Translations under genes and position numbers: made by a program
Shown: positions 13,727-36,756 of the stretch, in pieces
Layout: each line of letters opens with the position of its first letter
Numbering within the stretch: the stretch's first letter is position 1
Assembly: GCA_052034865.1 (NCBI GenBank)
Contig: JBPOIC010000039.1
Coordinates: 5,195 to 69,194, forward strand
Direction: 5' to 3'
Length of the DNA stretch: 64,000 nt
Source of the DNA: Myxococcota bacterium
GTDB lineage: Bacteria; UBA10199; JADFYH01
The notes under the pieces: generated by a model
Seen by the model: only the letters and a program-made list of their open reading frames with translations
What the model was told of the DNA's origin: nothing
Databases searched by the model: none

Positions 13727-13930
13727 ATGGCAGCTAAGAAAAAGGCACCCAAAACCCGCGAAGTATTAGTGGTGGCAAGCAAGGTGAAGGACTTCATCAA
13801 ATCCAAAGGTTGCATGACCTCGGGAGATACAATTCCTGCTCTTTCTGAGAAAGTTTATGCCCTGATTGAGGAAGCCATTACTCGCACCAAAGAGAACAGG
13901 CGCTCAACCGTCAAGCCGCAGGATCTTTAA
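13727..13930 (+). CDS. Small basic histone-fold protein (DUF1931/HBb-like bacterial histone candidate)
   Basis: 67 aa, MAAKKKAPKTRE tail, then LVVASKVKDFIKSKG (alpha1), CMTSGD (L1), TIPALSEKVYALIEEAITRTKEN (alpha2), RRSTVKPQDL (histone L2/alpha3 motif, cf. GRKTIKAEDI). Strong RBS aaggaga at 13714-13720. Confidence 0.55.
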   Translation: MAAKKKAPKTREVLVVASKVKDFIKSKGCMTSGDTIPALSEKVYALIEEAITRTKENRRSTVKPQDL

Positions 13931-19444: not shown

Positions 19445-19948
19445 ATGCATTCCGTTGCCGAAAACAATTTTTTAACGACAAAGCTCAGTGAGGTGATTGC
19501 CTGGGGGCGCAAGTTTTCCCTTTGGCCAATGCCCTTCGGAACTGCATGCTGTGCCATTGAGTTCATGGGGGCTGTGGATGCAGTTTACGATATCTCCCGC
19601 TTTGGCGCAGAGCTCGTCCGCTTTTCCCCTCGTCAATCCGATCTTCTACTGGTGCTTGGAACCATCAATTACAAGCAGGCACCTGTTCTCAAAAAAGTTT
19701 ATGAACAGATGTGCGATCCCAAGTGGGTGGTGGCAGTAGGAGCTTGTGCGACCTGTGGCGGATTTTACGACAATTATAGTGTGCTACAGGGAATCGATGA
19801 GATTATTCCCGTTGATGTTTATGTTCCTGGTTGTCCACCGAGGCCAGAATCCATTCTCAGAGGGATTGTTACCCTGCAGGAAAAAATTACGGCAGAGGCT
19901 AAAGGGGAGAAGATACAAAAACCATTTCCAATCAGTCAGCCTGCTTGA
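19445..19948 (+). CDS. nuoB: NADH-quinone oxidoreductase subunit B
   Basis: [21 protein letters not shown] (N2 cluster cysteines). Confidence 0.9.
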
Positions 19949-19997
19949 TGTGAGTGAATTTTTTGCGTTCCATAAAATAAGTGAAGGCTCTCTTTAA

Positions 19998-20489
19998 GTG
20001 AATGATATGAGCAAAGTGATCGATCGTTTTCAGCAGAAATTTTCAGAAAAGATTATTGGCTCTCATGCAAATCTTGGGGATGAGACCCTCGTCGTCTCCT
20101 CCGATGCTCTCATTGATATTCTTCAATTTGCAAAGCAAGACCCTGAGCTTCAGTTTGATATGTTGATGGATATTTGCGGGGTTGATTATCTGGGGCAAAC
20201 CCCGCGGTTTGAAGTAGTTTATCATCTCTATTCAGTTCCTAAAAACCATCGCCTTCGAATCAAAGTAAAAGTTCCGGAAGATAGCTGTCGGCTTCCTTCC
20301 TGCATTTCTCTCTGGAAATCAGCTGACTGGTTTGAGCGTGAAACCTGGGACATGATGGGAATTGAGTTTGAAAGTCATCCTTACTTAAGGCGACTGCTTT
20401 TATTTGAAGGATTCGAAGGGCATCCCTTGCGAAAAGATTATCAGATCGACAGACGTCAGAAAATTCCGGAGCCTTTAAAGAATCTCTAA
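19998..20489 (+). CDS. nuoC: NADH-quinone oxidoreductase subunit C
   Basis: 163 aa, 30-kDa subunit pattern (FDMLMDICGVDY ... ADWFERETWDMMGIEF). Confidence 0.85.
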   Translation: MNDMSKVIDRFQQKFSEKIIGSHANLGDETLVVSSDALIDILQFAKQDPELQFDMLMDICGVDYLGQTPRFEVVYHLYSVPKNHRLRIKVKVPEDSCRLPSCISLWKSADWFERETWDMMGIEFESHPYLRRLLLFEGFEGHPLRKDYQIDRRQKIPEPLKNL

Positions 20490-20542
20490 TTTGACAGGGC
20501 GATTTACGAACGGACCTTTTCTTGCGACCAAAATGAATCATT

Positions 20543-21745
20543 ATGATGCAACCTGTACTAGCCGAAGAAGGCGATCTTAAAACGAAAAAGATGTATTTAA
20601 ACATCGGACCCAACCATCCGGCGATGCACGGCACCTTGCGTCTGCTGGTTGAGCTCGATGGCGAGAATATTGTCAGCTCAATCGCCGAGATGGGCTATCT
20701 GCATCGTGGTTTCGAAAAACATTCTGAGACTGGCACTTATACTCAAGTCATTCCCTACACCGATCGACTCAACTACATCAGCCCTCTCATGAACAATGTC
20801 GGTTATTGCATGGCCGTCGAAAAACTTATCGGTTGTGAAATTCCCGAGCGTGCACAAGTCATCCGTCTCATTATTTGCGAGCTTTCACGTATTACCGATC
20901 ATCTTGTTTGTATTGGAACCAACCTGGTCGATATCGGTGCACTAACCAATTTTTGGTACTATTTTAATGTTCGTGAAAAGATTTACGACTTTATCGAGAA
21001 AATTTGCGGAGCGCGGCTTACGACCAACTACACCCGGATTGGTGGTCTTGCCCGTGATTTTCATCCCGAAGCTGCCGACGAATTAAAGATTATTTTAAAA
21101 GAAGTTCAGCGTGCGACCCAGGAAGTTCGAAATCTGATTTTAAAAAACAAAATTTTCTACGATCGAACTGCAGGGGTTGCACCTATTACTGCTGAAGAAG
21201 CGAAAAATTATGGATTCACTGGTCCCTGTTTGCGGGCGGCCGGGGTCGATTATGATGTTCGCAAGGCCCAACCCTATCTCAATTATCAGGATTATGATTT
21301 CGACATTCCCGTAGGTGAATCCGGCGATACTTATGATCGCTTTTTGGTACGCTTCGAAGAGATCCAACAGTCCAGTCGCATTATTGAGCAAGCCATTCCC
21401 AAGTTAAAGCCGGGTCCTGTCATGACCTCCGATCGCCGTGTGGCCCTGCCACCCAAGAGCGAAGTGTATACCAACATCGAAGCCCTCATGAATCACTTCA
21501 AGCTCATTTTCGAAGGTGTGCGTCCTCCTGCAGGAGAGGTTTATTCAGCAACTGAAGCAGCGAACGGAGAGCTGGGATTTTATATTGTAAGCGATGGGAG
21601 TACGCGTCCTTACCGTGTGAAATGCCGTCCCCCGTGTTTTCCCCTGTATGCGGCTTATCCAAAGATGATTCAGGGATCCATGATCGCCGATGCGATTGCG
21701 GTTCTGGGAAGTATCAATATTATTGCGGGAGAGTTAGACCGGTAA
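20543..21745 (+). CDS. nuoD: NADH-quinone oxidoreductase subunit D
   Basis: 400 aa, GPNHPAMHGTLRL... typical 49-kDa subunit. Confidence 0.9.
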   Translation: MMQPVLAEEGDLKTKKMYLNIGPNHPAMHGTLRLLVELDGENIVSSIAEMGYLHRGFEKHSETGTYTQVIPYTDRLNYISPLMNNVGYCMAVEKLIGCEIPERAQVIRLIICELSRITDHLVCIGTNLVDIGALTNFWYYFNVREKIYDFIEKICGARLTTNYTRIGGLARDFHPEAADELKIILKEVQRATQEVRNLILKNKIFYDRTAGVAPITAEEAKNYGFTGPCLRAAGVDYDVRKAQPYLNYQDYDFDIPVGESGDTYDRFLVRFEEIQQSSRIIEQAIPKLKPGPVMTSDRRVALPPKSEVYTNIEALMNHFKLIFEGVRPPAGEVYSATEAANGELGFYIVSDGSTRPYRVKCRPPCFPLYAAYPKMIQGSMIADAIAVLGSINIIAGELDR

Positions 21746-21793
21746 GTGATTCAAAATCTCTTTATTTAAGTTTCAAAATTTCCAAAGCTCTTT

Positions 21794-22267
21794 ATGTCTA
21801 TCGAGTTTTCACCCGAAAATAAAAAGAAGTTCGAAGAAACCCTGACCCATTATCCGACCAGGCGGGCTGCGCTGTTACCGACGCTCTGGATCGCCCAACG
21901 GCAGTTTGGTTGGATTTCGCCCGAGGTCATGGAATACATCGCGTCTTTACTCGAGATTCCACCCGTGAAGGTTTACGAAGTCGCAACCTTCTACACCATG
22001 TACAATACAAAGCCGGTCGGAAAATATCACCTGCAGGTGTGCCGGACTTTATCTTGTGAGCTGTGCGGAAAAGAAAAAATTGTTAACCACCTTCAAAGCA
22101 AATTGGGGATCAAGGCGGGCGAAACGACGGCGGATGGTCGATTTACTTTAACCGAAGTTGAATGCCTAGGCTCGTGCGGAACCGCACCCATGATGCAGGT
22201 CAATGATGATTATTTTGAAAATCTCACGCCTGAAAAGATCGACACGATTTTAAAAGGGCTTGAGTAA
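21794..22267 (+). CDS. nuoE: NADH-quinone oxidoreductase subunit E (2Fe-2S)
   Basis: CRTLSCELCG ... CLGSCGTAPMMQVND cysteine pattern. Confidence 0.9.
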   Translation: MSIEFSPENKKKFEETLTHYPTRRAALLPTLWIAQRQFGWISPEVMEYIASLLEIPPVKVYEVATFYTMYNTKPVGKYHLQVCRTLSCELCGKEKIVNHLQSKLGIKAGETTADGRFTLTEVECLGSCGTAPMMQVNDDYFENLTPEKIDTILKGLE

Positions 22268-23534
22268 AGTTATGGAACGTATCCTAACCGAACATTGGGG
22301 CAAAAAAGATTCGCACACACTGGCCTTTTATCTGGAGCATGGCGGTTATCAAACCCTGTCCAAGGTTTTTAAGATGAAGCCGGATGAAGTGATCGAAGAA
22401 GTTAAAAAATCCGGCCTGCGGGGGCGTGGAGGTGCTGGATTTGCGACGGGTATGAAATGGAGTTTTGTTCCCAAAGACAATTCCAAACCGCATTATCTTT
22501 GCATCAATGCAGATGAAAGCGAGCCCGGTACTTTTAAAGATCGCTACATCCTCGAAAATACCCCACATCAACTTATTGAAGGGGCCATCATTTGTTCATA
22601 TGCCATCGGGGCCAAAGCTGCTTACTGCTACATTCGGGGAGAATTTGTTTTTCCAGCCGATCGTATGGAAGCTGCGGTTCAGGAAGCCTACCAGGCAGGG
22701 TATCTGGGAAAAAACATTCAAGGCAGTGGAGTCGATCTTGATCTTTACGTTCACCGTGGAGCGGGCGCTTACATTTGCGGTGAAGAAACAGCCCTGCTCG
22801 AATCACTCGAAGGAAAACGTGGCTATCCACGCTTAAAACCCCCATTTCCGGCCCTTGTCGGTTTGTTCGGCTGCCCTACTGTCATCAATAACGTCGAAAC
22901 CCTGGCCGTTACTCCTTATATTCTCAACAACGGCGGTGAGGCTTACCGAAAATACGGCACGGAAAAAAGCCCAGGCACCAAGCTTTTCTGTGTTTCAGGT
23001 CATGTCAATAAACCTGGTAATTACGAAGTGCCTCTGGGTTATCCACTCAAAAAACTCATCTACGAAGATTGCGGTGGGATCAAAGACGGCAAGACCTTGA
23101 AGGCTGTGATTCCAGGCGGATCTTCTGTCCCTGTCCTGACAAAAAAAGAGGCCGAAGAGGTAAATCTCGATTACGAAGCCCTTCAGTCTGCAGGTTCGAT
23201 GCTCGGATCGGGAGGTGTGATTGTTATCGATGAAACCACATGCATGGTCAAAAGCCTGCTCAACCTCGCCCATTTTTATTCTCATGAATCCTGCGGTCAA
23301 TGTGCTCCCTGTCGTGAAGGAACCGGCTGGTCCTATAAAATTCTCAAGCGGATTGAAAATGGGGAAGGGACCGAGGCCGATCTGGAACGTCTGCTGCAAA
23401 ACGCCGATCACATGTCCGGAAAAACAGTGTGTGTGCTTTCCGATGCGCTCGCCATGCCGATCCAAAGTTTTTTAAAGCGCTTTCGTCATGAGTTTGAAGA
23501 ACATGTAAAGTTGAAGAAGTGCCCTATGAAATAA
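22260..23534 (+). CDS. nuoF: NADH-quinone oxidoreductase subunit F (FMN, 4Fe-4S)
   Basis: GLRGRGGAGF (NADH/FMN site), ESCGQCAPCREG (N3 cluster). Confidence 0.9.
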   Translation: MSKVMERILTEHWGKKDSHTLAFYLEHGGYQTLSKVFKMKPDEVIEEVKKSGLRGRGGAGFATGMKWSFVPKDNSKPHYLCINADESEPGTFKDRYILENTPHQLIEGAIICSYAIGAKAAYCYIRGEFVFPADRMEAAVQEAYQAGYLGKNIQGSGVDLDLYVHRGAGAYICGEETALLESLEGKRGYPRLKPPFPALVGLFGCPTVINNVETLAVTPYILNNGGEAYRKYGTEKSPGTKLFCVSGHVNKPGNYEVPLGYPLKKLIYEDCGGIKDGKTLKAVIPGGSSVPVLTKKEAEEVNLDYEALQSAGSMLGSGGVIVIDETTCMVKSLLNLAHFYSHESCGQCAPCREGTGWSYKILKRIENGEGTEADLERLLQNADHMSGKTVCVLSDALAMPIQSFLKRFRHEFEEHVKLKKCPMK

Positions 23535-23538
23535 TACT

Positions 23539-23862
23539 GTGAATCTTAATTTTGAATGGGATCATCCCAAGGTAGCTGAAAATATAAAAAAGCATGGCGT
23601 TTCTTTTTAGGAAGCTTCCAGCGCTTTATTAGATCCTCTTTCCTTAGCTTTCCCAGATAGTGGCCATTCTGCGTCAGAGTATCGGTTTCTGACTGTAGAG
23701 GAATCTACACAATTGAGATTACTGGTCGTCGCACACACTGACAGAAATGGAAAAATCCGGATCATCAGTGCCAGAAAAGCAACTCGTAAAGAACGTAGAT
23801 TTTTTTATGAAGAAAAAAGAATTAAAAAAACGAATTGCGGAGTGAGTACGATTTTTCCCTGA
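23539..23862 (+). pseudogene. brnT: brnT-like (DUF497) toxin gene with in-frame TAG
   Basis: GTG 23539: VNLNFEWDHPKVAENIKKHGVSF, then TAG at 23608-23610, then same frame continues EASSALLDPLS...LLVVAHTDRNGKIRIISARKATRKERRFFYEE to TGA 23860-62. FEWD...KHGVSF and IRIISARKAT are BrnT signatures. Confidence 0.6.
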
Positions 23863-24029
23863 TGAAGGGCGGCGTACAAGGGAAATACATGAAGGCTTAC
23901 AAGAAGGAAAGTAACGTTGTCTTGCTTGAACCCGATGTTACGAAGGCTTTTCCCAATGCAGATTCTGTTAATCAAGTTTTAAGAGACCTCATGAAGCTTG
24001 CTCGGCTTCGTCTGAGTCACAGCCGTTGA
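23835..24029 (+). CDS. brnA: BrnA-like antitoxin (RHH/CopG-like)
   Basis: 64 aa from TTG, SEYDFSLMKGGVQGKY...LEPDVTKAFPNADSVNQVLRDL matches BrnA EYDFS...GKY...LDxDV...VNxALR pattern. Overlaps brnT 3-prime end out of frame; stop overlaps nuoG start region. Confidence 0.6.
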   Translation: MRSEYDFSLMKGGVQGKYMKAYKKESNVVLLEPDVTKAFPNADSVNQVLRDLMKLARLRLSHSR

Positions 24030-24037
24030 GTAGTTTT

Positions 24038-25543
24038 ATGCCAACCCTAAAAATAGACAACCAAGATATCACCGTAGAACCAGGGACCACCGTCATCGAA
24101 GCGGCTAAAAAGCTCGGCGTGGAGATCCCTCATTTTTGCTACCATCCCAAACTTAGCATTTCGGGAAACTGCCGTATGTGTTTGGTAGAGGTGGAAAAAT
24201 TTCCAAAACCGCAAATTTCCTGCTCGCTCGTAGCCACCGACGGTATGGTCGTCCATACCCAATCCGAAAATGCAAAAAAGTGGCGCAAAAATGTCCTCCA
24301 GTTTATCCTCATCAATCATCCTCTCGATTGTCCGGTCTGCGATCAGGCGGGCGAGTGCAAGTTGCAAAATTACTATCTGAGCGAGTCGGTCAAGCTGAGT
24401 GAATTTCAGGAAGAAAAAGTTCACAAGCCAAAAAAAATCAGACTTGGTCCTCAGGTCATGCTCGATGACGAGCGCTGTATCATGTGTTCGCGCTGTATCC
24501 GCTTTTGCGATGAGATCACAAAGACCTCCGAGTTGGGATTCACTCAACGGGGAGATCACATCGAGCTGCGTCCTTTTCCTGGCAAAGAACTCAACAATCC
24601 CTATTCGATAAATACTGTTGATATTTGCCCAGTCGGTGCACTTACCAGCTCAGATTTTCGCTTTAAAAAACGGGTGTGGTTTTTAAAAACAGCCGATTCA
24701 ATTTGCTCGGGATGTTCGCGCGGATGCAATCTTCGTCTGCAATATGAAAATGAGACGGTTTATCGCTACCTGCCTCGTCAAAACGAAGCCGTGAATTCTG
24801 TTTGGCTCTGTGATGCCGGTCGTTTGAGTTATAAGCAGATCAATGAAAATCGTGTGATCACCTCTGAAAAACGAATCGAAGGTCAGCTTACGCGCATTCA
24901 TCCTGAACAGGCGATCAGTGAAGTAACAGCTCTTATGAAAAAAGCGGCTGGAAAACCAATCCTGGTCTTGGGAAGTGCGCAAGGTTCAAACGAAAATAAT
25001 CTGGCCTTAAAGAAATTAGCCGCACTTGTGGGCAGTGATCAAGTGGCACCAATGCTTGCCTACTCTGGACGTGAAGTTGCAAATCCTTACGAAGATGATT
25101 TTCTGATCAAGGCCGATAAGAACCCTAACACGCGCGGAGTAGAACATTTGGGTTTCCAGAAATTGAATCATGTTTCTTCCTCAGAAATTTGCCTCATTCT
25201 TGGAGAAGTTTCCGAACCGGATCTTAAGAAAATTGCAGAAACAAAACCTTCCTGCGTAATCTATTTTGCTACCCACCGAGACGCCACGACCGGGATTGCC
25301 GATTACCTTTTCCCCATCACGATATTTGCCGAAGAGTCGGGGACTTTCATGAATTTTGAAGGACGTGTGCAGAAATTCAATCCTGGGCCTAAATCTCGTG
25401 GTCAAATGAAGCCCGCCTGGCAATGGATAAAAGAGTTGGCTCAGGGGTTGGGAGTGGTCTGGAATCTTCATCCTGCTGCTTTGCTTCAGGAAGGGTTTGG
25501 TTTAAGTGATGCCGATCTTGGAGCCGAAGGCAAGAGGCTATGA
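24038..25543 (+). CDS. nuoG: NADH-quinone oxidoreductase subunit G (short form)
   Basis: 2Fe-2S (CYHP...GNCRMC), HPLDCPVCDQAGEC, CIMCSRCIRFC and CPVGALT clusters. About 500 aa, so the C-terminal molybdopterin-like domain is abbreviated. Confidence 0.8.
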   Translation: MPTLKIDNQDITVEPGTTVIEAAKKLGVEIPHFCYHPKLSISGNCRMCLVEVEKFPKPQISCSLVATDGMVVHTQSENAKKWRKNVLQFILINHPLDCPVCDQAGECKLQNYYLSESVKLSEFQEEKVHKPKKIRLGPQVMLDDERCIMCSRCIRFCDEITKTSELGFTQRGDHIELRPFPGKELNNPYSINTVDICPVGALTSSDFRFKKRVWFLKTADSICSGCSRGCNLRLQYENETVYRYLPRQNEAVNSVWLCDAGRLSYKQINENRVITSEKRIEGQLTRIHPEQAISEVTALMKKAAGKPILVLGSAQGSNENNLALKKLAALVGSDQVAPMLAYSGREVANPYEDDFLIKADKNPNTRGVEHLGFQKLNHVSSSEICLILGEVSEPDLKKIAETKPSCVIYFATHRDATTGIADYLFPITIFAEESGTFMNFEGRVQKFNPGPKSRGQMKPAWQWIKELAQGLGVVWNLHPAALLQEGFGLSDADLGAEGKRL

Positions 25544-26109
25544 GTTCTGCGAGGGTGCGGCATTTTTTTCTGGGGGTGATGCTCGTGACGGTTGTTCTGG
25601 TTTCTCCTTCTGCATTTTCGCAACTCTCCCGACTGCTATCCTCCAAAGAAATTACGGCCGTGATCTTGTCTCCGATGTTCGGCATTCCAGGAGATAAAGA
25701 CGGCCAATGGCTTTTAAACGATGAAGAAGCCTTGCAGGCCGAGAAAATTCTTCAAGGCTGCATCCTTGAAAAAACAAAGCAAACCCAGAATCCCAACGAA
25801 AATCGGTGGGAAACCATTCGGCGGGAAATTCAGGTGAGGGGTTGGTCCGAGATTCAAAAAAATCTTTCGGATTATTTGCGGCAATACGCCGGAGTCACAC
25901 GTGAGAAGAAAAAACTTGTTTGGATAAACGCTTTTCACAAAAACACCTTGTCTATTTTTGGGAAGACGAACGAAGCTTTTGGATTGAGTCTTCCTCGCTG
26001 GCAGAGAGAAGTGATTTACGCCAATGATGGTGGCACCTATTTTTTTAATGCCTTCGTCGATTTGAAAGTCGGCAGTTGCGAGTCGCTTCAGTTTAATGGA
26101 GGCGCTTGA
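25540..26109 (+). CDS. Hypothetical secreted/membrane-anchored protein inserted between nuoG and nuoH
   Basis: 189 aa, N-terminal hydrophobic helix FFLGVMLVTVVLVSPSAF, no recognisable domain. 4-nt overlap with nuoG stop. Confidence 0.35.
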   Translation: MSSARVRHFFLGVMLVTVVLVSPSAFSQLSRLLSSKEITAVILSPMFGIPGDKDGQWLLNDEEALQAEKILQGCILEKTKQTQNPNENRWETIRREIQVRGWSEIQKNLSDYLRQYAGVTREKKKLVWINAFHKNTLSIFGKTNEAFGLSLPRWQREVIYANDGGTYFFNAFVDLKVGSCESLQFNGGA

Positions 26110-26302
26110 AGGAGATGCGGTTCAAAATGCCTAAGCTCTTGGCAGGATTAATGGTTTTGATAGTGCTTTATCTGTTTTGTTTTAAGCTTGCCCTCTGGCG
26201 ATGTCATTCAGGTTGGGCTGGATCCCACTGCCATACGCTGCTTGGATCCGGGGGGCACAACGTCCTGCAGGCTTTTGGTCATCTACATTAGGAGAAACGA
26301 CT

Positions 26303-27562
26303 TTGCTACTCCTCCTCTTAAAAATTGTGGTTCCTTTTTTTGTGATTCTCAACATCATCCCTTTGCTGATTTGGCTGGAGCGTAAAGGTTCGGCCTATAT
26401 TCAGGATCGTCGCGGACCCAATCGCGCAGGCATTTTAGGTATTCGCCTTGGAGGAATGATTCACTCGCTCACCGACGTGGTGAAACTGCTTTTTAAAGAG
26501 GATATTATTCCCGCACGCGTGAATCGGTTTTTCTATATTCTTGCTCCTTTTATTTCGATGAGTGTGGCGTGTGTAACCTTTGCTGTTCTTCCTTTTGGCG
26601 ATGTGGTGCACTGGAACGGGGAGGCCATCACCCTACAGGCCGCTGATTTGAATGCCGGAATTTTATATATCTTTGCCATTGCTTCACTCGGTGTTTATGG
26701 CGTGATGCTGGCCGGTTGGAGTTCCGACAACAAATATTCTCTTTTGGGCGGACTTCGCTCCTCGGCCCAAATGATCAGCTATGAGATTGTTCTTTCGCTT
26801 GCCGTGATCAGTGTTTTGATGATGGCAGGCTCACTGGAACTTTCGGCGGTTGTGACCGATCAATCCGAAAAAGTTTGGGGATGGAATTTTTTGCGTCAGC
26901 CGATTGCGTGTGTGCTTTTCATGATTGCGATGTTTGCCGAAACCAATCGTTTGCCCTTTGATCTTCCAGAAGGTGAATCCGAGCTGGTGGCAGGATATCA
27001 TCTCGAATACAGCTCGATGAAATTTGCCCTCTTTTTCATGGCCGAATATGCCAACATGATCATTGCTTCGGCCGTCTTAACCTCCCTGTTTTTTGGTGGC
27101 TGGCAGGTTCCTTTTTTAAGCACCGAAACGCTTCGGGGAAATGCAGACTTGATTTTGAAAATCCTTCTGGGTGGCGGAATTCTTGTGCATCTACTGGGAG
27201 GCGGCGCCTTGTTCAAACATGGGCTAAACAATGTTCGAGTAAAAAAATGGGGTGATATTCGCGATTATGAGCCCGTGATTTTGGGAGTGGGAATCGGAGG
27301 TTTAGGAATTATCCTGATCGGAGCTCTTGCCTATTTCTGGACTACGTCGTTGGGTGAAAACGGAGCCTCAGTCGTTACAGGGGTGTTACAGGCCGTTACC
27401 TATATTTTAAAAATCCTGTTTTTCTGCTGGGTGTTTATATGGGTACGCTGGACGCTTCCGCGTTTTCGTTATGATCAGCTCATGAAGCTGGGCTGGAAGT
27501 ATATGCTTCCTTTAGCGCTCATCAATATTTTAGTGACGGGATGGGTGATGTTAGCGATTTAA
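26303..27562 (+). CDS. nuoH: NADH-quinone oxidoreductase subunit H with internal/C-proximal insertion
   Basis: LIWLERKGSAYIQDRRGPNRAG ... VRWTLPRFRYDQLMKLGWK are canonical NuoH. Start proposed at TTG 26303 after ggaga RBS (ORF opens 26201). About 80 extra residues before the last helix. Confidence 0.8.
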   Translation: MLLLLLKIVVPFFVILNIIPLLIWLERKGSAYIQDRRGPNRAGILGIRLGGMIHSLTDVVKLLFKEDIIPARVNRFFYILAPFISMSVACVTFAVLPFGDVVHWNGEAITLQAADLNAGILYIFAIASLGVYGVMLAGWSSDNKYSLLGGLRSSAQMISYEIVLSLAVISVLMMAGSLELSAVVTDQSEKVWGWNFLRQPIACVLFMIAMFAETNRLPFDLPEGESELVAGYHLEYSSMKFALFFMAEYANMIIASAVLTSLFFGGWQVPFLSTETLRGNADLILKILLGGGILVHLLGGGALFKHGLNNVRVKKWGDIRDYEPVILGVGIGGLGIILIGALAYFWTTSLGENGASVVTGVLQAVTYILKILFFCWVFIWVRWTLPRFRYDQLMKLGWKYMLPLALINILVTGWVMLAI

Positions 27563-28866
27563 ATCGATGCCATTATCTTTCTTAGGGTAGTGCCATCTTT
27601 TGCTTCTTCAGGAACAAAAGAAGAGAAGAGTTCAATTTCTGATAGAATAATTTCCTTACGAAAGTTCTCTCCTAAATCCTTTTTATTCCACTGCTCCCTT
27701 AAACTATTCCAGATGAGTTCTTTTTGAGTATCGGGCCTTTCCTGTTCCATTCGCAATGCTTCCATCAGAGTCGAGATGGCGCTTAAATCTTCAGACTTCC
27801 CTAAAATTTCAATAGCAAATTTTCTGATTTCAACATTTTCACTTAAGCAAAGCCCTAAGAGAATTTGATGGGTATACGATGGATTTTGCTGGGTGAGTTT
27901 TAAAAAGAGCTCCTGCAGTTGAGGTGAATAAGTTTTTAGAAATCTTTCTCCCCGAGACTGTTTCAACGAAGCTTCCCATTTTTGTGAAAGAAGGCGGGCA
28001 AACCTGAAAGGATCTTCTTCTTTTTCGAAGAGTGATTTGAAAACGGTTTGATCGAGTTTTTGAATGACCGTTTCCTGCCAGGTAATATCCCAGGAGAAAT
28101 CTTTCGTGGAGATGAGACTTGCTAATGATTCTTCGGCACACTGAAGATCGCGTGCATCGCCGATTTCAATGAGGAGTGAAATCAGCACAGGAAGGCTGAG
28201 AGTAGGACTATAATGAAAATCGTAATGTTCATACTCAAAGCGACTTAAATTCGACTGCCACTCATCAAACAGAGTAGAATCGGTCAGTGCGCATGAATGC
28301 TGAAATAAAAGATGAACCCCAAGCTCCAGGGCTTTTTCAATCTCTGAAGTCATGGGCCGTCCCAAAAATCGAATCAACTCTACCGCTCGGTTTCGTTCAC
28401 TAAACCGTGCATTGCTTAAGTTAATTAAAAGATCATGGGCTAGCTTATGAGTTTCAGGACTTTGCTCCCCGATCTGTCCCCATTTTTTAAGCAGATGAAA
28501 AATCTCTATTCTTTTTTTCAGTGATGGATAGGAAGACAGCAAAGGAGATGAAATGTCCTGCGCCATATTCTTTTTGAAAAGATAGACTCGCCTTTCAAAG
28601 GCCAGGTTGCTTCGATTGGGATCTCCCAAAAGGCGATCGGCCAATTTTTCAAACCCCAGTTCATTAAGTTTTTGGCGGATTTCCGGATTGCGCAGGTCGG
28701 CATCCGGTTGAGTGGCCGAAATCAGGTAGGTCTTGAGTGGAGCGGTGTCGGGAAATAAATCAGTGGGAAGAATATTTTCTGCTTCTTCAGGTGTCAGCCC
28801 GTCTTTATCTGACAAGGCAGCCAGAAGCTTCTCAACACGGTCTCCTCCAATTCGCAACTCTGCCAT
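27559..28866 (-). CDS. HEAT-repeat protein, antisense to the nuo genes, in the position normally held by nuoI
   Basis: 435 aa. Repeated helical pairs such as NVEIRKFAIEILGKSEDLSAISTLMEAL resemble PBS-lyase/HEAT repeats. No catalytic motif recognised. Confidence 0.45.
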   Translation of the reverse strand: MAELRIGGDRVEKLLAALSDKDGLTPEEAENILPTDLFPDTAPLKTYLISATQPDADLRNPEIRQKLNELGFEKLADRLLGDPNRSNLAFERRVYLFKKNMAQDISSPLLSSYPSLKKRIEIFHLLKKWGQIGEQSPETHKLAHDLLINLSNARFSERNRAVELIRFLGRPMTSEIEKALELGVHLLFQHSCALTDSTLFDEWQSNLSRFEYEHYDFHYSPTLSLPVLISLLIEIGDARDLQCAEESLASLISTKDFSWDITWQETVIQKLDQTVFKSLFEKEEDPFRFARLLSQKWEASLKQSRGERFLKTYSPQLQELFLKLTQQNPSYTHQILLGLCLSENVEIRKFAIEILGKSEDLSAISTLMEALRMEQERPDTQKELIWNSLREQWNKKDLGENFRKEIILSEIELFSSFVPEEAKDGTTLRKIMASI

Positions 28867-29102
28867 CTGAAAAACCCTCCCCCGGATTTACAGCAAGCAC
28901 GCTGTTACAGTGTTTTATAAGGTAGTAATGAAGGCTCAATTGCTTCTAACCACAATGGGTATTATATTTTTTCCTTAAGGTCTCATTGTGGAGAAGCACT
29001 TGAAGCTTTATTTCTGATGAATTGCCTTGAATAAAATTGTGGTATTCGTTAGTGAATGGCCATTCAAAAAGCGTTCGAATTGTAGCCCTATCCCAAAAAA
29101 AT

Positions 29103-29603
29103 ATGCAACCGATTCTCTTCTATCTTTTTGGCGGCTTGGCCCTTGCAACGGCGCTGGGCGTCATAGTCTTTAAAAATCCCATTTCCTCTGCTTTCTCTCT
29201 CATCGTTTCTTTTTTTGCCATGGCGGGTTTATATGCCATGCTCGATGCCCACTTTTTGGCGATCATTCAAATCCTGGTTTATGCAGGTGCCATTATGGTG
29301 CTCTTTATTTTTGTCATCATGCTCTTGAATCTTCAGGGGGATGAATTGAAAGAGCGTCCTTTTCATCCTTATTTTAAAGGTCTTGCGGCTTTATTGCTCC
29401 TGGGGTTTGGAGGTGTGCTGTATCTTGTCCTGGGACCGATGAATACTTCAATGAGAGAAGTGGGCGATGGTTTCGGTAGCATTAAAGAGGTAGGGACTGA
29501 GCTATTTACACGTTACTGGTTTGCTTTCGAATATACCTCGATTTTGTTACTGGTTGCCCTGATTGGTGGAGTTGTATTGGCAAAAAGGGAGTTAAAACCA
29601 TGA
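29103..29603 (+). CDS. nuoJ: NADH-quinone oxidoreductase subunit J
   Basis: MQPILFYLFGGLALATALGVI... typical NuoJ; ATG 29103 (ORF opens 29037). Confidence 0.85.
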   Translation: MQPILFYLFGGLALATALGVIVFKNPISSAFSLIVSFFAMAGLYAMLDAHFLAIIQILVYAGAIMVLFIFVIMLLNLQGDELKERPFHPYFKGLAALLLLGFGGVLYLVLGPMNTSMREVGDGFGSIKEVGTELFTRYWFAFEYTSILLLVALIGGVVLAKRELKP

Positions 29604-29905
29604 CCCTCGAGATCTCACACTATCTCATTTTGAGTGCCGCACTTTTTACCTTGGGCCTTGCGGGCCTGGTGATCCGAAGAAATATTCTGGTTATCTTCAT
29701 GTCCATTGAGCTTTTGCTCAATGCAACCAATCTGGCTTTTGTTACCTTTTCCCGCTTTCGCGGAAGCATTGATGGCCAGATCGCCTCTTTTTTTGTGATT
29801 GCCGTCGCCGCCGCTGAAGCCGCTGTTGGTTTGGCGATCGTGATTGCCATCTTCAGAAACCGGGGAACAGTGAAGGTGGATGAGTTGAACATGATGAAGA
29901 GATAG
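29600..29905 (+). CDS. nuoK: NADH-quinone oxidoreductase subunit K
   Basis: 101 aa, three TM helices, 4-nt overlap with nuoJ. Confidence 0.9.
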   Translation: MTLEISHYLILSAALFTLGLAGLVIRRNILVIFMSIELLLNATNLAFVTFSRFRGSIDGQIASFFVIAVAAAEAAVGLAIVIAIFRNRGTVKVDELNMMKR

Positions 29906-29919
29906 AGATTGTAAAAATA

Positions 29920-30096
29920 GGTGCCGATAAGGTTCTGACAGCCATTTTAAGAGGAGTCTCCGACTCCAGTCTTCACTTTCTGGATATTTGTCGTTTTCTT
30001 AAATAACTGGGTTTTGAGGAAAAGATTCGTGGAAGACATCATATCTTTTCCAAAGAGGGAATTGAGGAAATCATCAATCTTCAGCCTGCCGGATAA
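29920..30096 (+). pseudogene. hicA-like toxin remnant (single in-frame TAA, truncated)
   Basis: ...KVLTAILRG...FLK, then TAA(30004-06), then LGFEEKIRGRHHIFSKEGIEEI. GF..R.kGSHHxF..(E/P)G resembles the HicA/YcfA core. No start codon, C-terminus missing. Confidence 0.3.
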
Positions 30097-30161
30097 AAAA
30101 CGAAGCCATCAGGTTAAGCAGGTGTGAGCTATTGTGTTGAAATTACAAGTCGGAGATCTGA

Positions 30162-30421
30162 ATACATAAATCCGAAATCATTATTTACTGGAGCAAAGAA
30201 GATCATAGTTTAGTCGCAGATGCTCCTGAGTTGCCAGGTTGTATGGCGAATCCATCTATAAGAAAGCCCTCCAGAACGCAGATTATTCGGGAATGGATTT
30301 AAACTGCAAAAGAGTTGGGATGCGAAATTCCCGAGCCAAAAGGAAGGTTAATGTTTGCTTAAAAAGAACTTCCGAAATTTTATATTTTAACTCACTCCTT
30401 CATCCTCTCATTAGAAACTGA
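30162..30421 (+). pseudogene. hicB-family (UPF0150) antitoxin gene, frameshifted
   Basis: IIIYWSKEDHSLVADAPELPGC (30162-30242) carries the UPF0150 signature V.(E/D)LPGC. The usual continuation G(D/E)T/S..EAL.NA appears in the +2 frame as GESIYKKALQNAD (ORF 30239-30421). Confidence 0.5.
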
Positions 30422-30443
30422 GGAAGGGAGCCACGAATAAATT

Positions 30444-32405
30444 ATGACGCCTCCCCTCTATCTCATTCCTCTCCTGCCCTTGTTGGGTGCCCTGATCAAC
30501 GGTGCAACGGCATTGCACGTTGCTTACTGGAAGAAAAAACCCTCAGAAACTTTCGTGAGTGTAGTGGGAGTATTTTTCCCCTTACTTTCTTTTGCTTTTG
30601 CCCTGATGGCAGCCTGGCCTTTTATTTTGGGTGGAGTGTCCGAAGCGCGGGTGGACCCCGTTTTTGAATGGTTGGCAGCAGGAAACTTTAAGGTCGGATT
30701 CGATTTGCAGCTGGATCGACTCTCCTCCCTTATGGTTCTTATCGTGACAGGGATTGGAACTCTCATCCATCTTTACTCAACGGGATATATGAAGGGGGAT
30801 GGCGCCTTTGCCCGCTATTTTACTTATTTAAATTTATTCCTTTTCTCGATGCTCCTGCTCATCTTGGGCAATAACCTTTTAATTCTTTTCATTGGTTGGG
30901 AAGGCGTCGGATTGTGCAGTTATCTCCTCATCGGTTTTTGGTTCGATGATCCAGCCAAGGCTTCAGCCGGAAAAAAGGCCTTTGTGGTAAACCGAATAGG
31001 TGATTTTGGCTTTTTGCTCGCGGTTTTCATCATCGTTGCCCTTCTGCTTCCCAATGCCCAAGCTGCCTCTGAGGGAATCTTAAGCTTTTCCACCCTTGAA
31101 AAATACAAAGAGATTTTGGCCCCGATGGCCACAGCAATTACGCTTCTGCTCTTCGTTGGAGCGACCGGTAAATCTGCTCAAATTCCTTTATATGTCTGGC
31201 TGCCAGATGCCATGGCGGGTCCAACACCAGTTTCTGCACTCATCCACGCCGCGACTATGGTGACCGCGGGTGTATACATGGTGGCACGACTTTCATTTCT
31301 TTTTGATCTGGCTCCTTTTTCCAGGGAGGTGGTTGTCACCATTGGAGCTGCCACGGCCCTTTTTGCGGCCACGATCGGTATCGTTCAGCGCGACATCAAA
31401 AAAGTTCTCGCCTACTCAACTGTTTCCCAGCTGGGCTACATGTTCATCGGAGTAGGGCTGGGCGCCAATACCGCCGGGGTTTTTCACTTAATGACCCACG
31501 CATTTTTTAAAGCCTGTCTCTTTTTGGGATCGGGCTCCGTCATTCACGCCATGCATGGCGAACAGGATATTTTCAAAATGGGCGGACTTAAGAAATGGAT
31601 GCCTATAACGTTCTGGACCTTTTTTATCTCTACTATCGCGATCGCGGGCATTCCTCCTTTTTCCGGATTTTTCAGCAAGGATGAAATCCTCTTCCAGGCC
31701 TTTGACCGTGGCTATCCTGTTCAGGGAATGTTGGGACTGATTGCTGCTGGAATGACGGCCTTTTATATGTTTCGCCTGACGACTCTGACGTTCATGGGCA
31801 AGTGCCGGGCCGATCATCACACTCAGGAGCATCTTCACGAATCTCCCTGGACGATGACCCTCCCTCTTATTCTTCTTGCCATTCTCGCGATTGGGGGAGG
31901 TTGGGTAGGAATTCCCGAGGCCTTTGGTGGACATAATCATTTGCACCATTGGTTAGGACTCGAAGGACACATCGGATCTTTTGCGGAAGAGTCTCATCAA
32001 ACCGCCGAACATGGGCCAGCCGAGATTCGCCTCGCTGTTTTCAGTGCGGTGTGGGCCTTGTTCTGGTCTGTCTTTGCTGTTGTACTTTATCTCAAAAAGA
32101 CCCAATGGATGGACGCTCTTGAGAAAAAACTCAAAGGCTTAAATACCCTGGTTTATAACAAATATTATGTCGATGAAATTTATGAGACTCTGATCGTAAA
32201 ACCCTTGGCCTGGATTTCTGAAAAGGTCTTGTGGCGTGGGGTCGATGCAGGTGTGATCGACGGAATCTTAGTCAATGGAGGTGCTCGTTTTACCCAATTT
32301 TTAGGTCAGATCGCAGGGACTCTTCAAACAGGAATAGTGAATGCCTATGCCCTCTGGTTTTTGGCGGGGGTAGTGGGAATTCTGGTCTGGGTCCTGTCGA
32401 TGTAA
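30444..32405 (+). CDS. nuoL: NADH-quinone oxidoreductase subunit L
   Basis: 653 aa antiporter-like subunit. Confidence 0.9.
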   Translation: MTPPLYLIPLLPLLGALINGATALHVAYWKKKPSETFVSVVGVFFPLLSFAFALMAAWPFILGGVSEARVDPVFEWLAAGNFKVGFDLQLDRLSSLMVLIVTGIGTLIHLYSTGYMKGDGAFARYFTYLNLFLFSMLLLILGNNLLILFIGWEGVGLCSYLLIGFWFDDPAKASAGKKAFVVNRIGDFGFLLAVFIIVALLLPNAQAASEGILSFSTLEKYKEILAPMATAITLLLFVGATGKSAQIPLYVWLPDAMAGPTPVSALIHAATMVTAGVYMVARLSFLFDLAPFSREVVVTIGAATALFAATIGIVQRDIKKVLAYSTVSQLGYMFIGVGLGANTAGVFHLMTHAFFKACLFLGSGSVIHAMHGEQDIFKMGGLKKWMPITFWTFFISTIAIAGIPPFSGFFSKDEILFQAFDRGYPVQGMLGLIAAGMTAFYMFRLTTLTFMGKCRADHHTQEHLHESPWTMTLPLILLAILAIGGGWVGIPEAFGGHNHLHHWLGLEGHIGSFAEESHQTAEHGPAEIRLAVFSAVWALFWSVFAVVLYLKKTQWMDALEKKLKGLNTLVYNKYYVDEIYETLIVKPLAWISEKVLWRGVDAGVIDGILVNGGARFTQFLGQIAGTLQTGIVNAYALWFLAGVVGILVWVLSM

Positions 32406-32498
32406 GTGATTTGTTCAAGACTCCATCGGTTTTTATCTCCGGCTTGAAGACAGCGGAATGACGATCGAGTCTTAAAAATCAAACTGCAGGAGAGTTGA

Positions 32499-32894
32499 AT
32501 GGAGAATTTGCCAGTCGTAGGAGAGCAGAATAATCCATCAGGGAGCATCAATCCTTTTCAGATGCTCAACTGGTTGGTGGGAATCGTCTTAATCGGGATA
32601 GGTTGTGCTTTAAGTTACTGGTTGTTTCGAGCGATCGGCGATTTTTTATATGCCCCTGAAAAAATCGCTCTGCTCGGAAAAATTTTACAAACTCCCTCGG
32701 GAGATCAATCTATTCGCATTATATTAAATGGATCTCCGAATGGTACCGGTCAGGGAGTGACCGTTCAGTACAATGATTTTGTGAAATACTTTGTCTTTTT
32801 GGTGGTGGGTTTTATTTTGTTTGGATCGATTGGACGGATTATCTCGGCTTTTTTTAGTGCTGGAATTAAAGCCCTGACAGGAAGATTGCAGTAA
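32499..32894 (+). CDS. Hypothetical two-TM membrane protein inserted between nuoL and nuoM
   Basis: 131 aa, two hydrophobic helices (LNWLVGIVLIGIGCALSYWLF; YFVFLVVGFILFGSIG), no known motif. Confidence 0.35.
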   Translation: MENLPVVGEQNNPSGSINPFQMLNWLVGIVLIGIGCALSYWLFRAIGDFLYAPEKIALLGKILQTPSGDQSIRIILNGSPNGTGQGVTVQYNDFVKYFVFLVVGFILFGSIGRIISAFFSAGIKALTGRLQ

Positions 32895-33049
32895 TCTTTA
32901 GTACTTCATTAGTACTGCAGAATGGACGGAGCAAGTCCGTCTGACAACGGTGAGTTTTTAGATTTATTACTTTTCTGGTTTTTTCCCTTCTTCTGATTGG
33001 GATAAAACCCTTAAGGAAAACAACAGCTGTGGAATGGTGAAATAAAACA

Positions 33050-36123: not shown

Positions 36124-36756
36124 ATGCTCAAAAACCTTGATGACTATTTGATGGAAAGCCTTGAGCTCAAGCAGGTGATCGGGTCCTGGGGCTTTAACTC
36201 CAATATCAATTTTACGGCCATGACACCCGAAGAAGGGAATGTCTGGTTTTTCGAGCAGGTCTTTAATTTCTTGCGTTCTTTTTTTGGTCTTGTTGTTCCC
36301 GATAATCTTGAGGTGATCACCTACAACGCCACACAACACATCCAGAAACAGCGGATGGAGCAACAGACGTTTCTCGATGAGCTCATGCTGATCATGAAAA
36401 ACCTCAAAGAACCCATCTGGTGCCTGCGCTTAAATCTCAACATCATGGGATTTTTAAGAACAAAGAACAGCCCGGATAAACCTGTTCGTCTGCAAATCCA
36501 GGAGCCTTGCAGTTTTATTCTCTGGGGTGGACCGGATGAGACAGGTTTTCAGACCTTCTCTGTCAGCTACACACTTTTCTCCAATACCTGCCTCGAAGGT
36601 GATGACCAGCTTCTTTGGTCGATTAATCAGCCGATTCTCGAAAAAGCCCTCCGCAAATGGGAAGAGCAAACCGGCCATGTGATTGATGTGGTAGAATCGA
36701 ATGGCGATCTTCCGGTTTATCGTCATGGTTTTGAAAAACCTGCGGAGATCCAGTAG
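36124..36756 (+). CDS. Hypothetical protein downstream of nuoN
   Basis: 210 aa, soluble, no recognised motif; 47 nt after nuoN stop, same strand. Confidence 0.35.
   Translation: MLKNLDDYLMESLELKQVIGSWGFNSNINFTAMTPEEGNVWFFEQVFNFLRSFFGLVVPDNLEVITYNATQHIQKQRMEQQTFLDELMLIMKNLKEPIWCLRLNLNIMGFLRTKNSPDKPVRLQIQEPCSFILWGGPDETGFQTFSVSYTLFSNTCLEGDDQLLWSINQPILEKALRKWEEQTGHVIDVVESNGDLPVYRHGFEKPAEIQ

What the first reader, a model, noticed from the sequence alone, without database searches (positions are those of the whole stretch)
29920..30421. Second decayed toxin-antitoxin locus (hicA-like remnant plus frameshifted hicB) between nuoK and nuoL
Seen: the 538-nt nuoK-nuoL spacer contains IYWSKEDHSLVADAPELPGC (the V.DLPGC signature of UPF0150/HicB antitoxins). 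The expected continuation (GESIYKKALQNAD, cf. GDTLEEALENA) is shifted into another frame. Upstream lies a start-less frame with one internal TAA whose second half reads LGFEEKIRGRHHIFSKEG, resembling the HicA (YcfA) GSHH core.

Inference: together with the brnTA cassette, this means the otherwise syntenic nuo locus has been invaded at least twice by type II TA modules that subsequently decayed. This is an unusual location for TA loci and may reflect operon-internal integration hotspots.
Basis: partly seen in the sequence, partly recalled or inferred. Interest (0 to 1): 0.55.

Follow-up and report, generated by a model that had tools for sequence, protein, structure and literature searches.

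The report
Dead hicAB cassette inside nuo operon
The 538-base gap between two respiratory complex I genes (nuoK and nuoL) is the wreck of a small HicA/HicB toxin-antitoxin gene pair, and it matters mainly because related uncultured bacteria carry intact toxin-antitoxin pairs wedged into the same operon.

Summary
The nuoK-nuoL spacer (29906-30443) holds a nearly full-length, co-oriented hicA-hicB pair. It is inactivated by nine lesions: both start codons are ATA, there are four premature stops, and there are three frameshifting deletions (-2, -4, -5 nt).

The repaired HicB matches 69-aa HicB antitoxins at E=1.8e-22 in a 5.8-billion-protein database (70% identity, full length). The repaired HicA and HicB hit adjacent RefSeq-annotated hicA and hicB genes on a plasmid (E=8e-16 and 2e-14). 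An independent assembly is 100% identical, so the lesions are not an artefact of one assembler.

A relative (71% NuoL identity) has an intact hicA-hicB pair at exactly this junction. The window's closest relative has an empty site (nuoK stop overlapping the nuoL ATG) but carries intact brnTA at the nuoF-nuoG junction, where the window has a brnT with a stop codon.

Across about 10 clade members, at least four toxin-antitoxin (TA)-type families sit co-oriented, and in most cases only 0-36 nt from the flanking genes, in different nuo junctions. In 545 junctions from 78 nuo loci of other phyla I found one TA pair, of the same hicAB subfamily.

The element itself is an ordinary pseudogene of a known kind, Class 1 hicAB. 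The recurrent occupation of nuo junctions is the modestly interesting part.

The parts
29600..29905 (+). nuoK (intact, 101 aa); the upstream boundary of the insertion
   Evidence: ORF; Pfam Oxidored_q2 on the identical gene.
29906..29916 (+). 11-nt linker between the nuoK stop codon and the former hicA start codon; too short to hold a promoter
   Evidence: The intact relative L089 has a 13-nt linker at the same place.
29917..30169 (+). hicA pseudogene (Class 1 HicA toxin). Lesions: start ATG->ATA at 29917-29919; TAA at 30004-30006; TAA at 30094-30096; 2-nt deletion after 30107; TGA at 30125-30127. The final reading frame ends at TAA 30167-30169.
   Evidence: Lesions mapped on DNA alignment A1 against three intact homologues. 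tblastn E=3.7e-20 with 61.7% identity to L089 HicA. Pfam HicA_toxin E=2.4e-4 on the repaired peptide. Hit to an annotated plasmid HicA at E=8e-16.
30162..30362 (+). hicB pseudogene (small HicB antitoxin without a DNA-binding domain). Lesions: start ATG->ATA at 30162-30164; 4-nt deletion after 30251; 5-nt deletion after 30282 (together these restore the frame minus 3 codons); TAA at 30300-30302. The original stop TAA at 30360-30362 is retained. It overlaps the end of hicA by 8 nt, as in intact homologues.
30363..30443 (+). 81-nt tail carrying the likely nuoL ribosome-binding site (GAGGAAGGGAG). It shows no similarity to the SnoaL_2 gene that follows hicB in L089.
   Evidence: Its predicted fold is not better than shuffled sequence (z=-0.57).
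30444..32405 (+). nuoL (intact, 653 aa); the downstream boundary of the insertion
23545..24029 (+). Sibling cassette at the nuoF-nuoG junction. brnT (23545-23817) has an in-frame stop at 23608-23610. The brnA reading frame is uninterrupted over the 64 aa called as a gene (23835-24029).
   Evidence: tblastn with L090 BrnT (E=5e-32) and BrnA (E=1e-23); coordinates; intact orthologues in L090 and L091 at the same junction.

Best explanation
The nuoK-nuoL spacer is a pseudogenised Class 1 hicAB type II toxin-antitoxin cassette. hicA lies upstream. HicB is small, about 69 aa, with no DNA-binding domain.

Shown:
- A hicA-hicB pair was inserted, in the same orientation as the operon, exactly between the nuoK stop codon and the nuoL start codon. 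In compact relatives these two codons are 0-2 nt apart or overlap.
- Both genes have since been destroyed by nine independent lesions, so neither toxin nor antitoxin can be made.
- A related genome still has the intact pair at the same junction.

Inferred:
- While alive, the cassette had no promoter of its own. Only 11-13 nt separate it from nuoK, and HicB lacks a DNA-binding domain, so it was probably transcribed as part of the nuo mRNA.
- Today the 538 nt are most likely just a transcribed, untranslated spacer that RNA polymerase reads through to reach nuoL-N. No terminator, promoter, Rfam family or significant RNA structure was found in it.
- The window's cassette and the L089 cassette probably share an origin. 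The route is unresolved. It could be ancestral insertion followed by precise losses, or spread between relatives by homologous recombination through the conserved flanking nuo genes.
For: Homology:
- Repaired HicB: E=1.8e-22, 70% identity, full length, to PF15919/PF21748 proteins.
- In other genomes those HicB genes are preceded by 84-86-aa HicA_toxin genes that overlap them.
- These HicA proteins align to 29929-30108 across two in-frame stops and then continue in the +1 frame.
- Plasmid hits fall on adjacent genes annotated as HicA toxin and HicB antitoxin.

Lesions:
- An independent Logan assembly of run SRR34217545 is 100% identical over 13,314 nt, including the spacer.
- Six of the nine lesions are substitutions.
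- No gene was called in the spacer in that assembly.

Orthologous site:
- L089 has hicA (81 aa) and hicB (69 aa) starting 13 nt after nuoK.
- The DNA is colinear with the window at 67.7% identity over 526 aligned columns, running from the nuoK 3' end to the hicB stop.
- L089 HicB passes the Pfam gathering scores: 39.9 against a cut-off of 27, and 36.7 against 27.3.
- Among 27 HicA homologues the window remnant is closest to L089, and the two pair in a neighbour-joining tree with about 50% bootstrap.

Empty sites:
- Six relatives have the nuoK stop, 0-2 nt, then the nuoL ATG.

No other function detected:
- See (promoters and terminators; Rfam; RNA fold).

Foreign composition:
- The spacer is 39% GC against 49% in nuoK and nuoL.

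Class definition:
- Taken from PMC10865869.
Against: - The repaired peptides score below the Pfam gathering thresholds (HicA 21.6 and HicB 15.5 bits against a cut-off of 27). NCBIfam has no model that detects even the intact relatives.
- The two hicAB-bearing genomes are not sisters in a concatenated NuoG-N tree. (window, L090) and (L089, (L087, L088)) each have 100% bootstrap. A single vertical origin therefore needs at least two precise losses.
- HicB gives no phylogenetic resolution: L089 ranks 10th of 124 homologues.
- Codon-position identities between the window and L089 still show the pattern left by purifying selection (position 2 > 1 > 3). This fits only loosely with nine accumulated lesions.
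- Transcription across the spacer was not measured.
Confidence: 0.92

Rival explanations
1. Two independent captures. The window lineage and the L089 lineage each acquired a hicAB cassette separately at the nuoK-nuoL boundary. This would happen if the junction, or operon gene boundaries in general, is a preferred or uniquely tolerated landing site for this promoterless cassette type. This rivals only the 'common origin' part of the best explanation.
For: - The two carriers are not sister taxa, and the sisters of both have empty 0-2 nt junctions.
- The same hicAB subfamily sits at a different nuo junction (nuoG-nuoH, with no spacer after the nuoG stop codon) in a Bacteroidetes genome, L018, which must be an independent event.
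- The Unstab_antitox/ParE pairs at the nuoE-nuoF junction in the non-sister genomes L088 and L092 are only 38-53% identical.
- The subfamily occurs on 29 predicted viral contigs, which are a plausible vehicle.
- The downstream content differs: L089 has a SnoaL_2 gene, and the window has an unrelated 81-nt tail.
Against: - The upstream boundary agrees to within 2 nt (11 against 13 nt after the nuoK stop).
- The window's HicA remnant is closest to L089's HicA among 27 homologues.
- No target-site duplication, terminal repeats or recombinase were found that would give site specificity.
Confidence: 0.35
2. Sequencing or assembly artefact. The hicAB genes are intact in the organism, and the stops and frameshifts are errors.
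For: Three of the lesions are small deletions, a class of change that can arise from sequencing error. The source is a metagenome-assembled contig.
Against: - An independent Logan assembly of run SRR34217545 is 100% identical over 13.3 kb, including every lesion.
- Six lesions are base substitutions (two ATG->ATA and four new stop codons).
- The thirteen nuo genes around the spacer are all intact ORFs on the same contig.
- Caveat: the Logan run may be the same read set as the source assembly.
Confidence: 0.03
3. Exapted spacer. The dead cassette is retained because the 538-nt untranslated stretch now does something for the operon. It could uncouple nuoL-N translation from nuoA-K, hold an RNA processing site, or hold an internal promoter.
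For: - The spacer has persisted through nine lesions without being deleted.
- The nuoL ribosome-binding site now lies in the cassette's tail.
- The spacer is G-rich and C-poor (117 G against 94 C). From general knowledge this is unfavourable for Rho loading, so read-through is plausible.
Against: - There are no more promoter-like or terminator-like sites than in shuffled sequence, and none stands out.
- There is no Rfam hit.
- The tail does not fold better than shuffled sequence.
- No second genome carries the decayed version, so conservation cannot be shown. Compact relatives do without any spacer.
Confidence: 0.08
4. A still-functional toxin-antitoxin module expressed by recoding (programmed frameshifting, stop-codon read-through, non-ATG starts).
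For: ATA can occasionally initiate translation. The two hicB deletions together restore the reading frame.
Against: - Expression would need four stop read-throughs, three frameshifts and two non-canonical starts within 450 nt.
- The out-of-frame hicB segment replaces 13 conserved residues.
- Intact homologues need none of this.
Confidence: 0.01

Closest known systems
Class 1 hicAB modules (Gerdes 2024, mBio, PMC10865869)
   Same: - hicA lies upstream of hicB.
- HicA is about 81-86 aa.
- HicB is about 69 aa, with only the partial RNase H / UPF0150 domain and no DNA-binding domain.
- The genes overlap by a few nt.
- The subfamily is also found on phage-like contigs.
   Different: - The window copy is a pseudogene pair.
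- It, and the intact L089 and L018 copies, abut the preceding nuo gene (0-13 nt) in the same orientation, with no room for a promoter.
- The free-standing homologues L001 and L002 have 278-351 nt upstream regions.
Classical E. coli-type HicAB (Classes 3/4: HicB with a C-terminal HTH or RHH domain that autorepresses the operon)
   Same: The same HicA toxin and HicB N-terminal domain families (PF07927, PF15919). By established knowledge of the family, the presumed mechanism is an mRNA interferase toxin neutralised by direct binding of HicB.
   Different: There is no DNA-binding domain, so no autoregulation by HicB is possible. L089 carries such a longer-type pair elsewhere (21365-21762), which is only about 32% identical in HicB.
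brnTA cassette in the same operon (nuoF-nuoG junction, window 23545-24029)
   Same: - A type II TA pair inserted co-oriented between two nuo genes.
- The toxin is inactivated.
- An intact orthologue sits at the same junction in a relative.
   Different: - It belongs to a different family (BrnT, PF04365).
- Only the toxin is visibly broken.
- It is shared with the sister genome, so vertical inheritance is straightforward.
TA cassettes in chromosomal (super)integrons
   Same: Small TA pairs behave as compact cassettes inserted in a fixed orientation into an array that supplies the context (my own knowledge, not tested here).
   Different: No attC-like inverted repeats, integrase or flanking repeats occur at the cassette borders. 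The host 'array' here is a housekeeping operon.

Membership tests
HicA toxin (PF07927) | Sequence match to the family profile | tested here: inconclusive
   The repaired remnant scores 21.6 bits (E=2.4e-4), below the gathering score of 27. Intact L089 HicA scores 26.8 bits, so this subfamily sits at the edge of the model. Homology is nonetheless clear: tblastn E=3.7e-20 to L089 HicA and E=8e-16 to a RefSeq-annotated HicA toxin.
HicA toxin (PF07927) | Conserved G-S-H-H catalytic histidine motif | tested here: met
   The window reads RGRHHIF where the intact homologues read RGSHHIF or RGSHHVF. Both histidines are kept and the serine is replaced by arginine.
HicA toxin (PF07927) | Intact, translatable ORF | tested here: not met
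   Start codon is ATA, there are three in-frame stops and one 2-nt deletion. The window copy is a pseudogene, not a functional member.
HicA toxin (PF07927) | [quoted passage not shown] | not testable with these tools
Activity needs an experiment.
HicB antitoxin (PF15919 / PF21748 UPF0150) | Sequence match to the family profile | tested here: met
   The repaired remnant alone scores only 15.5 bits. It is 70% identical over its full length to proteins carrying PF15919 and PF21748 (E=1.8e-22). The positional orthologue in L089 passes both gathering scores.
HicB antitoxin (PF15919 / PF21748 UPF0150) | Intact ORF | tested here: not met
   Start codon is ATA, there are 4-nt and 5-nt deletions and an internal TAA.
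Class 1 hicAB (PMC10865869) | hicA upstream of hicB; HicB of 67-97 aa without a DNA-binding domain; genes adjacent or overlapping | tested here: met
   The reconstructed order and sizes are hicA of about 81 codons and hicB of 66-69 codons, with an 8-nt overlap. The class definition is quoted.
Type II toxin-antitoxin system (functional) | Toxin toxicity neutralised by the cognate antitoxin | not testable with these tools
   According to PMC10865869, Class 1 modules have not been tested experimentally at all.
Integron gene cassette / transposon | attC-like imperfect inverted repeat, terminal inverted repeats or target-site duplication at the borders | tested here: not met
   The repeat finder on the window, L089 and L018 cassettes returned only short chance-level pairs, none at the borders and none shared.

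The most novel reading that the evidence does not exclude
In this uncultured lineage the complex I (nuo) operon may act as a recurrent landing pad for compact, co-oriented and apparently promoterless toxin-antitoxin cassettes placed at gene boundaries.

- Cassette types seen in nuo junctions: hicAB, brnTA, Unstab_antitox/ParE, DUF4160/DUF2442, and an AbiEii gene with a possible partner.
- The cassettes would go through a cycle of gain, hitch-hiking on the operon's transcription, and decay.
- If so, Class 1 hicAB modules, whose HicB has no DNA-binding domain and whose regulation is an open question (PMC10865869), could be expressed from host operon promoters rather than from their own.
- The same cassette type at the same junction in non-sister genomes would then reflect junction-targeted insertion, or recombination-driven spread through the conserved flanking genes.
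Probability: 0.3. Interest if true: 0.6.

Novelty: new member of a known kind. Interest (0 to 1): 0.4.

Why it matters
On its own, a dead toxin-antitoxin pair is routine genome debris. Identifying it mainly prevents the 538-nt gap from being mistaken for a regulatory element or a novel small gene.

The context is more useful:
- The same operon in about ten related genomes carries live or dead TA pairs of several families, most of them tightly packed between essential respiratory genes.
- This gives a natural series of empty site, intact cassette and decayed cassette for studying how TA modules enter, persist in and are purged from core operons.
- It also suggests a testable answer to how DNA-binding-domain-less Class 1 HicAB modules are expressed, namely from the host operon's promoter.

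Tried and rejected
- A word-index protein search with the repaired HicA found nothing, because the X placeholders break the 5-residue words. I replaced it with tblastn using partner proteins taken from HicB contexts and with a plasmid tblastn.
- NCBIfam has no model for this subfamily, even for the intact proteins.
Closer relatives came from the protein database plus contig look-ups and from a metagenome scan anchored on a clade-specific 210-aa protein downstream of nuoN.
- A sliding-window test for a recombination tract around the junction (is the window closer to L089 than to its sister L090 there?) was too noisy at 60-80% DNA identity to decide.
- HicB similarity ranking cannot separate orthology from family-wide conservation.
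- No SnoaL_2 remnant lies downstream of hicB.
- The spacer shows no promoter, terminator, Rfam or RNA-structure signal, and the borders carry no repeats.
- Literature searches for TA modules in nuo operons found nothing relevant in the open-access library.

Full report
**1. The observation**

- IYWSKEDHSLVADAPELPGC at 30183-30242.
- GESIYKKALQNAD at 30245-30283, in another frame.
- LGFEEKIRGRHHIFSKEG at 30007-30060, immediately after a TAA.

The spacer is 39% GC, against 49% in both flanking genes.

**2. Is it HicB and HicA?**

I joined the frames by eye, marked the stops as X, and searched the 5.8-billion-protein collection.
- The 66-aa HicB reconstruction gave 2289 hits. The best was E=1.8e-22 at 70% identity and 100% coverage.
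- The top hits are 68-76-aa proteins, nearly all carrying both PF15919 (HicB_lk_antitox) and PF21748 (UPF0150). Several are named HicB-family antitoxin by their sources.
- The HicA reconstruction found nothing in that tool, because the X characters break the word index.

I therefore took the genomic contexts of two HicB hits. In both, an 84-86-aa gene with a HicA_toxin Pfam hit lies directly upstream and overlaps hicB by 4-8 nt.
- tblastn of those HicA proteins against the whole 64-kb window hit 29929-30108 at E=5.7e-20 (50% identity, running across two in-frame stops).
- The alignment then continued in the +1 frame at 30101-30154.
- The HicB proteins hit 30162-30359 at about 1e-23. Everything else in the window scored E>0.01.

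Two further checks agree.
- Pfam on the repaired peptides points the same way but is below threshold: HicA_toxin 21.6 bits (E=2.4e-4) and HicB_lk_antitox 15.5 bits. NCBIfam detects neither these nor the intact relatives.
- Against 7.3 Gb of plasmids, the two repaired peptides hit two adjacent genes of the Thiolapillus brandeum plasmid NZ_AP012275.1. RefSeq annotates them as HicA family toxin (E=8e-16, 94% coverage) and HicB family antitoxin (E=2e-14).

**3. Anatomy of the decay**

I aligned the window DNA with three intact hicAB loci and read it codon by codon.

| Gene | Lesions |
|---|---|
| hicA (29917-30169) | start ATG->ATA at 29917-29919; TAA at 30004-30006; TAA at 30094-30096; 2-nt deletion after 30107; TGA at 30125-30127 |
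| hicB (30162-30362) | start ATG->ATA at 30162-30164; 4-nt deletion after 30251; 5-nt deletion after 30282; TAA at 30300-30302 |

- The two hicB deletions together restore the frame.
- The original hicB stop codon (TAA, 30360-30362) is retained, and so is the 8-nt hicA/hicB overlap.
- That makes nine inactivating lesions in about 450 nt, six of them substitutions.
- A contig from an independent Logan assembly of run SRR34217545 is 100% identical to window 19600-32913, including the spacer. No gene was called in the spacer there.
- The lesions are thus reproducible, with the caveat that the reads may be the same as those behind the source assembly.
- The spacer has no promoter-like or terminator-like excess, no Rfam match and no better-than-shuffled fold in the 81-nt tail.
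- No minus-strand ORF longer than 35 aa overlaps the spacer.

**4. Relatives**

GTDB species representatives gave only 47-56% NuoL identity. The protein collection holds a set of relatives at 66-74%, and I fetched their contigs.

| Locus | State of the nuo operon |
|---|---|
| L087, L088, L090/L091, L092, L093, L095 | Compact nuoK-nuoL junction: stop codon, 0-2 nt, then ATG |
| L089 (71% NuoL identity) | Intact hicA (81 aa) and hicB (69 aa) starting 13 nt after the nuoK stop, then a SnoaL_2 gene ending 7 nt before the likely nuoL ATG |

- The window and L089 align colinearly at 67.7% DNA identity over 526 aligned columns, from the 3' end of nuoK through hicB.
- L089 HicA is 61.7% identical to the window remnant.
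- L089 HicB passes the Pfam gathering scores.

The spacer is therefore an inserted cassette with a living counterpart at the same site.

**5. History**

A concatenated NuoG-N neighbour-joining tree places (window, L090) and (L089, (L087, L088)) together, each with 100% bootstrap.
- The two hicAB carriers are not sisters, and the sisters of both have empty sites.
- Among 27 HicA homologues, including 23 from predicted viral contigs, the window remnant is closest to L089 and pairs with it. Bootstrap support is only about 50%, and the pseudogene sits on a long branch.
- HicB is too conserved to be informative.
- A sliding-window search for a recombination tract around the junction was inconclusive.
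- No flanking repeats mark the borders.

I favour a common origin of the two cassettes (about 0.55-0.6) over independent capture (about 0.35). This question remains open.

**6. The wider pattern**

- The nuoF-nuoG gap holds a brnT with an in-frame stop at 23608-23610, followed by a brnA reading frame that is uninterrupted over the 64 aa called as a gene.
- The sister genome (L090/L091) has intact brnT-brnA in a gap of the same size: 489 nt, against 491 nt in the window.

Other clade members carry further inserts in nuo junctions.
- L088 and L092: an Unstab_antitox/ParE_toxin pair at nuoE-nuoF.
- L092: a DUF4160/DUF2442 pair at nuoG-nuoH, and a lone HicB-like gene at nuoL-nuoM.
- L089: an AbiEii gene preceded by a 209-aa ORF of unknown family, inside a 5.5-kb insert at nuoM-nuoN.
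- Several genomes: inserted genes of unknown function.

The window itself has five enlarged junctions of twelve. Ten small ORFs elsewhere in the window gave no TA family hit.

For comparison I scored 545 nuo junctions in 78 loci from other phyla.
- 53 gaps are 180 nt or longer. Most of these are nuoI or an extra nuoM paralogue.
- I found one TA pair: an intact hicAB of this same subfamily, placed directly after the nuoG stop codon in a Bacteroidetes genome, L018.
- Only the more plausible gap ORFs were checked, by eye and partly by Pfam.

Metagenome loci of the clade that show the nuoK-nuoL junction (L102/L154, L122, L141, L158, L172) are all compact.

The 'hotspot' idea is thus supported as a pattern in this clade. 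The sample is small, about ten genomes, and no mechanism was found.

**7. Comparison with what is known**

The reconstructed module fits Class 1 hicAB in the classification of PMC10865869: hicA first, a small HicB without a DNA-binding domain, and overlapping genes. That paper notes that this class is prevalent, experimentally untested, and of unknown regulation.
- The window copy fails the 'intact ORF' criterion. It is a pseudogene of that class, not a working member.
- What differs from the described free-standing modules is the placement. The cassette sits 0-13 nt after the preceding nuo gene, co-oriented, with no room for a promoter (window, L089, L018).
- Free-standing homologues have 278-351 nt upstream regions.
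- Full-text searches found no report of TA modules inside nuo operons. That library covers open-access papers only.

**8. Verdict**

The finding is correct and its interpretation is supported.
- The element is a new member of a known kind, a decayed Class 1 hicAB, and as such is ordinary.
- The recurrent occupation of complex I operon junctions by TA cassettes in this lineage is a modestly interesting, testable side result.
- Interest is 0.4.

Noticed in passing
window 23545-24029: brnT with an in-frame stop (23608-23610), followed by a brnA reading frame uninterrupted over the 64 aa called as a gene, between nuoF and nuoG. The sister genome L090/L091 has the intact pair in a gap of the same size.
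   Followed up: partly
window 26201-29603; L087-L093: nuoH is followed directly by nuoJ, with no nuoI. tblastn with a NuoI protein found nothing in the 64-kb window or in the clade's nuo loci, whereas 23 loci from other phyla have nuoI at this position.
   Followed up: partly
window 27559-28866 (-): A 435-aa ORF on the opposite strand sits between nuoH and nuoJ, overlapping the nuoH stop by 4 nt. It has only a weak HEAT-repeat hit and is absent from the sister genome L090.
   Followed up: partly
window 25540-26109 and 32499-32894: Two more co-oriented inserted ORFs lie in the nuo operon: 189 aa after nuoG and 131 aa after nuoL. Neither has a significant Pfam family, and both are absent from the sister genome.
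   Followed up: partly
window 36124-36756: A 210-aa protein directly downstream of nuoN is 72-84% identical across the clade, more conserved than NuoL, and has no Pfam family on record. 79 metagenome loci encode relatives. It could be a lineage-specific complex I accessory protein.
   Followed up: partly
window 13727-13930: A 67-aa ORF (MAAKKKAPKTREVLVVASKVKDFIKSKGCMTSGDT...) gave a weak spurious HicB hit in tblastn and no Pfam family. From memory it resembles the small bacterial histone-fold proteins of Bdellovibrio. This was not tested.
   Followed up: no
L018 1082-1544 (Bacteroidetes MAG JABDFS010000078.1): An intact hicA (86 aa) and hicB (69 aa) of the same subfamily lie between nuoG and nuoH. 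The hicA ATG immediately follows the nuoG stop codon.
   Followed up: yes
L089 13564-18752 and 21365-21762: A 5.5-kb insert between nuoM and nuoN holds a 209-aa ORF of unknown family, an AbiEii gene, a Crp-like regulator and other genes. A second, longer-type hicAB pair sits right after the conserved 210-aa gene.
   Followed up: no
L094 1-59: The contig of a close relative (P0125) ends 59 nt upstream of nuoL, in non-coding sequence rather than in nuoK. Its nuoK-nuoL junction is therefore also not compact, and the assembly break there might reflect a repeated cassette.
   Followed up: no
window 57303-57797 (-): An ORF with an IS1595-type (ISXO2-like) DDE transposase domain, apparently only a fragment.
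   Followed up: no
window 41291-49942 (-): A giant 2883-aa ORF; not examined.
   Followed up: no
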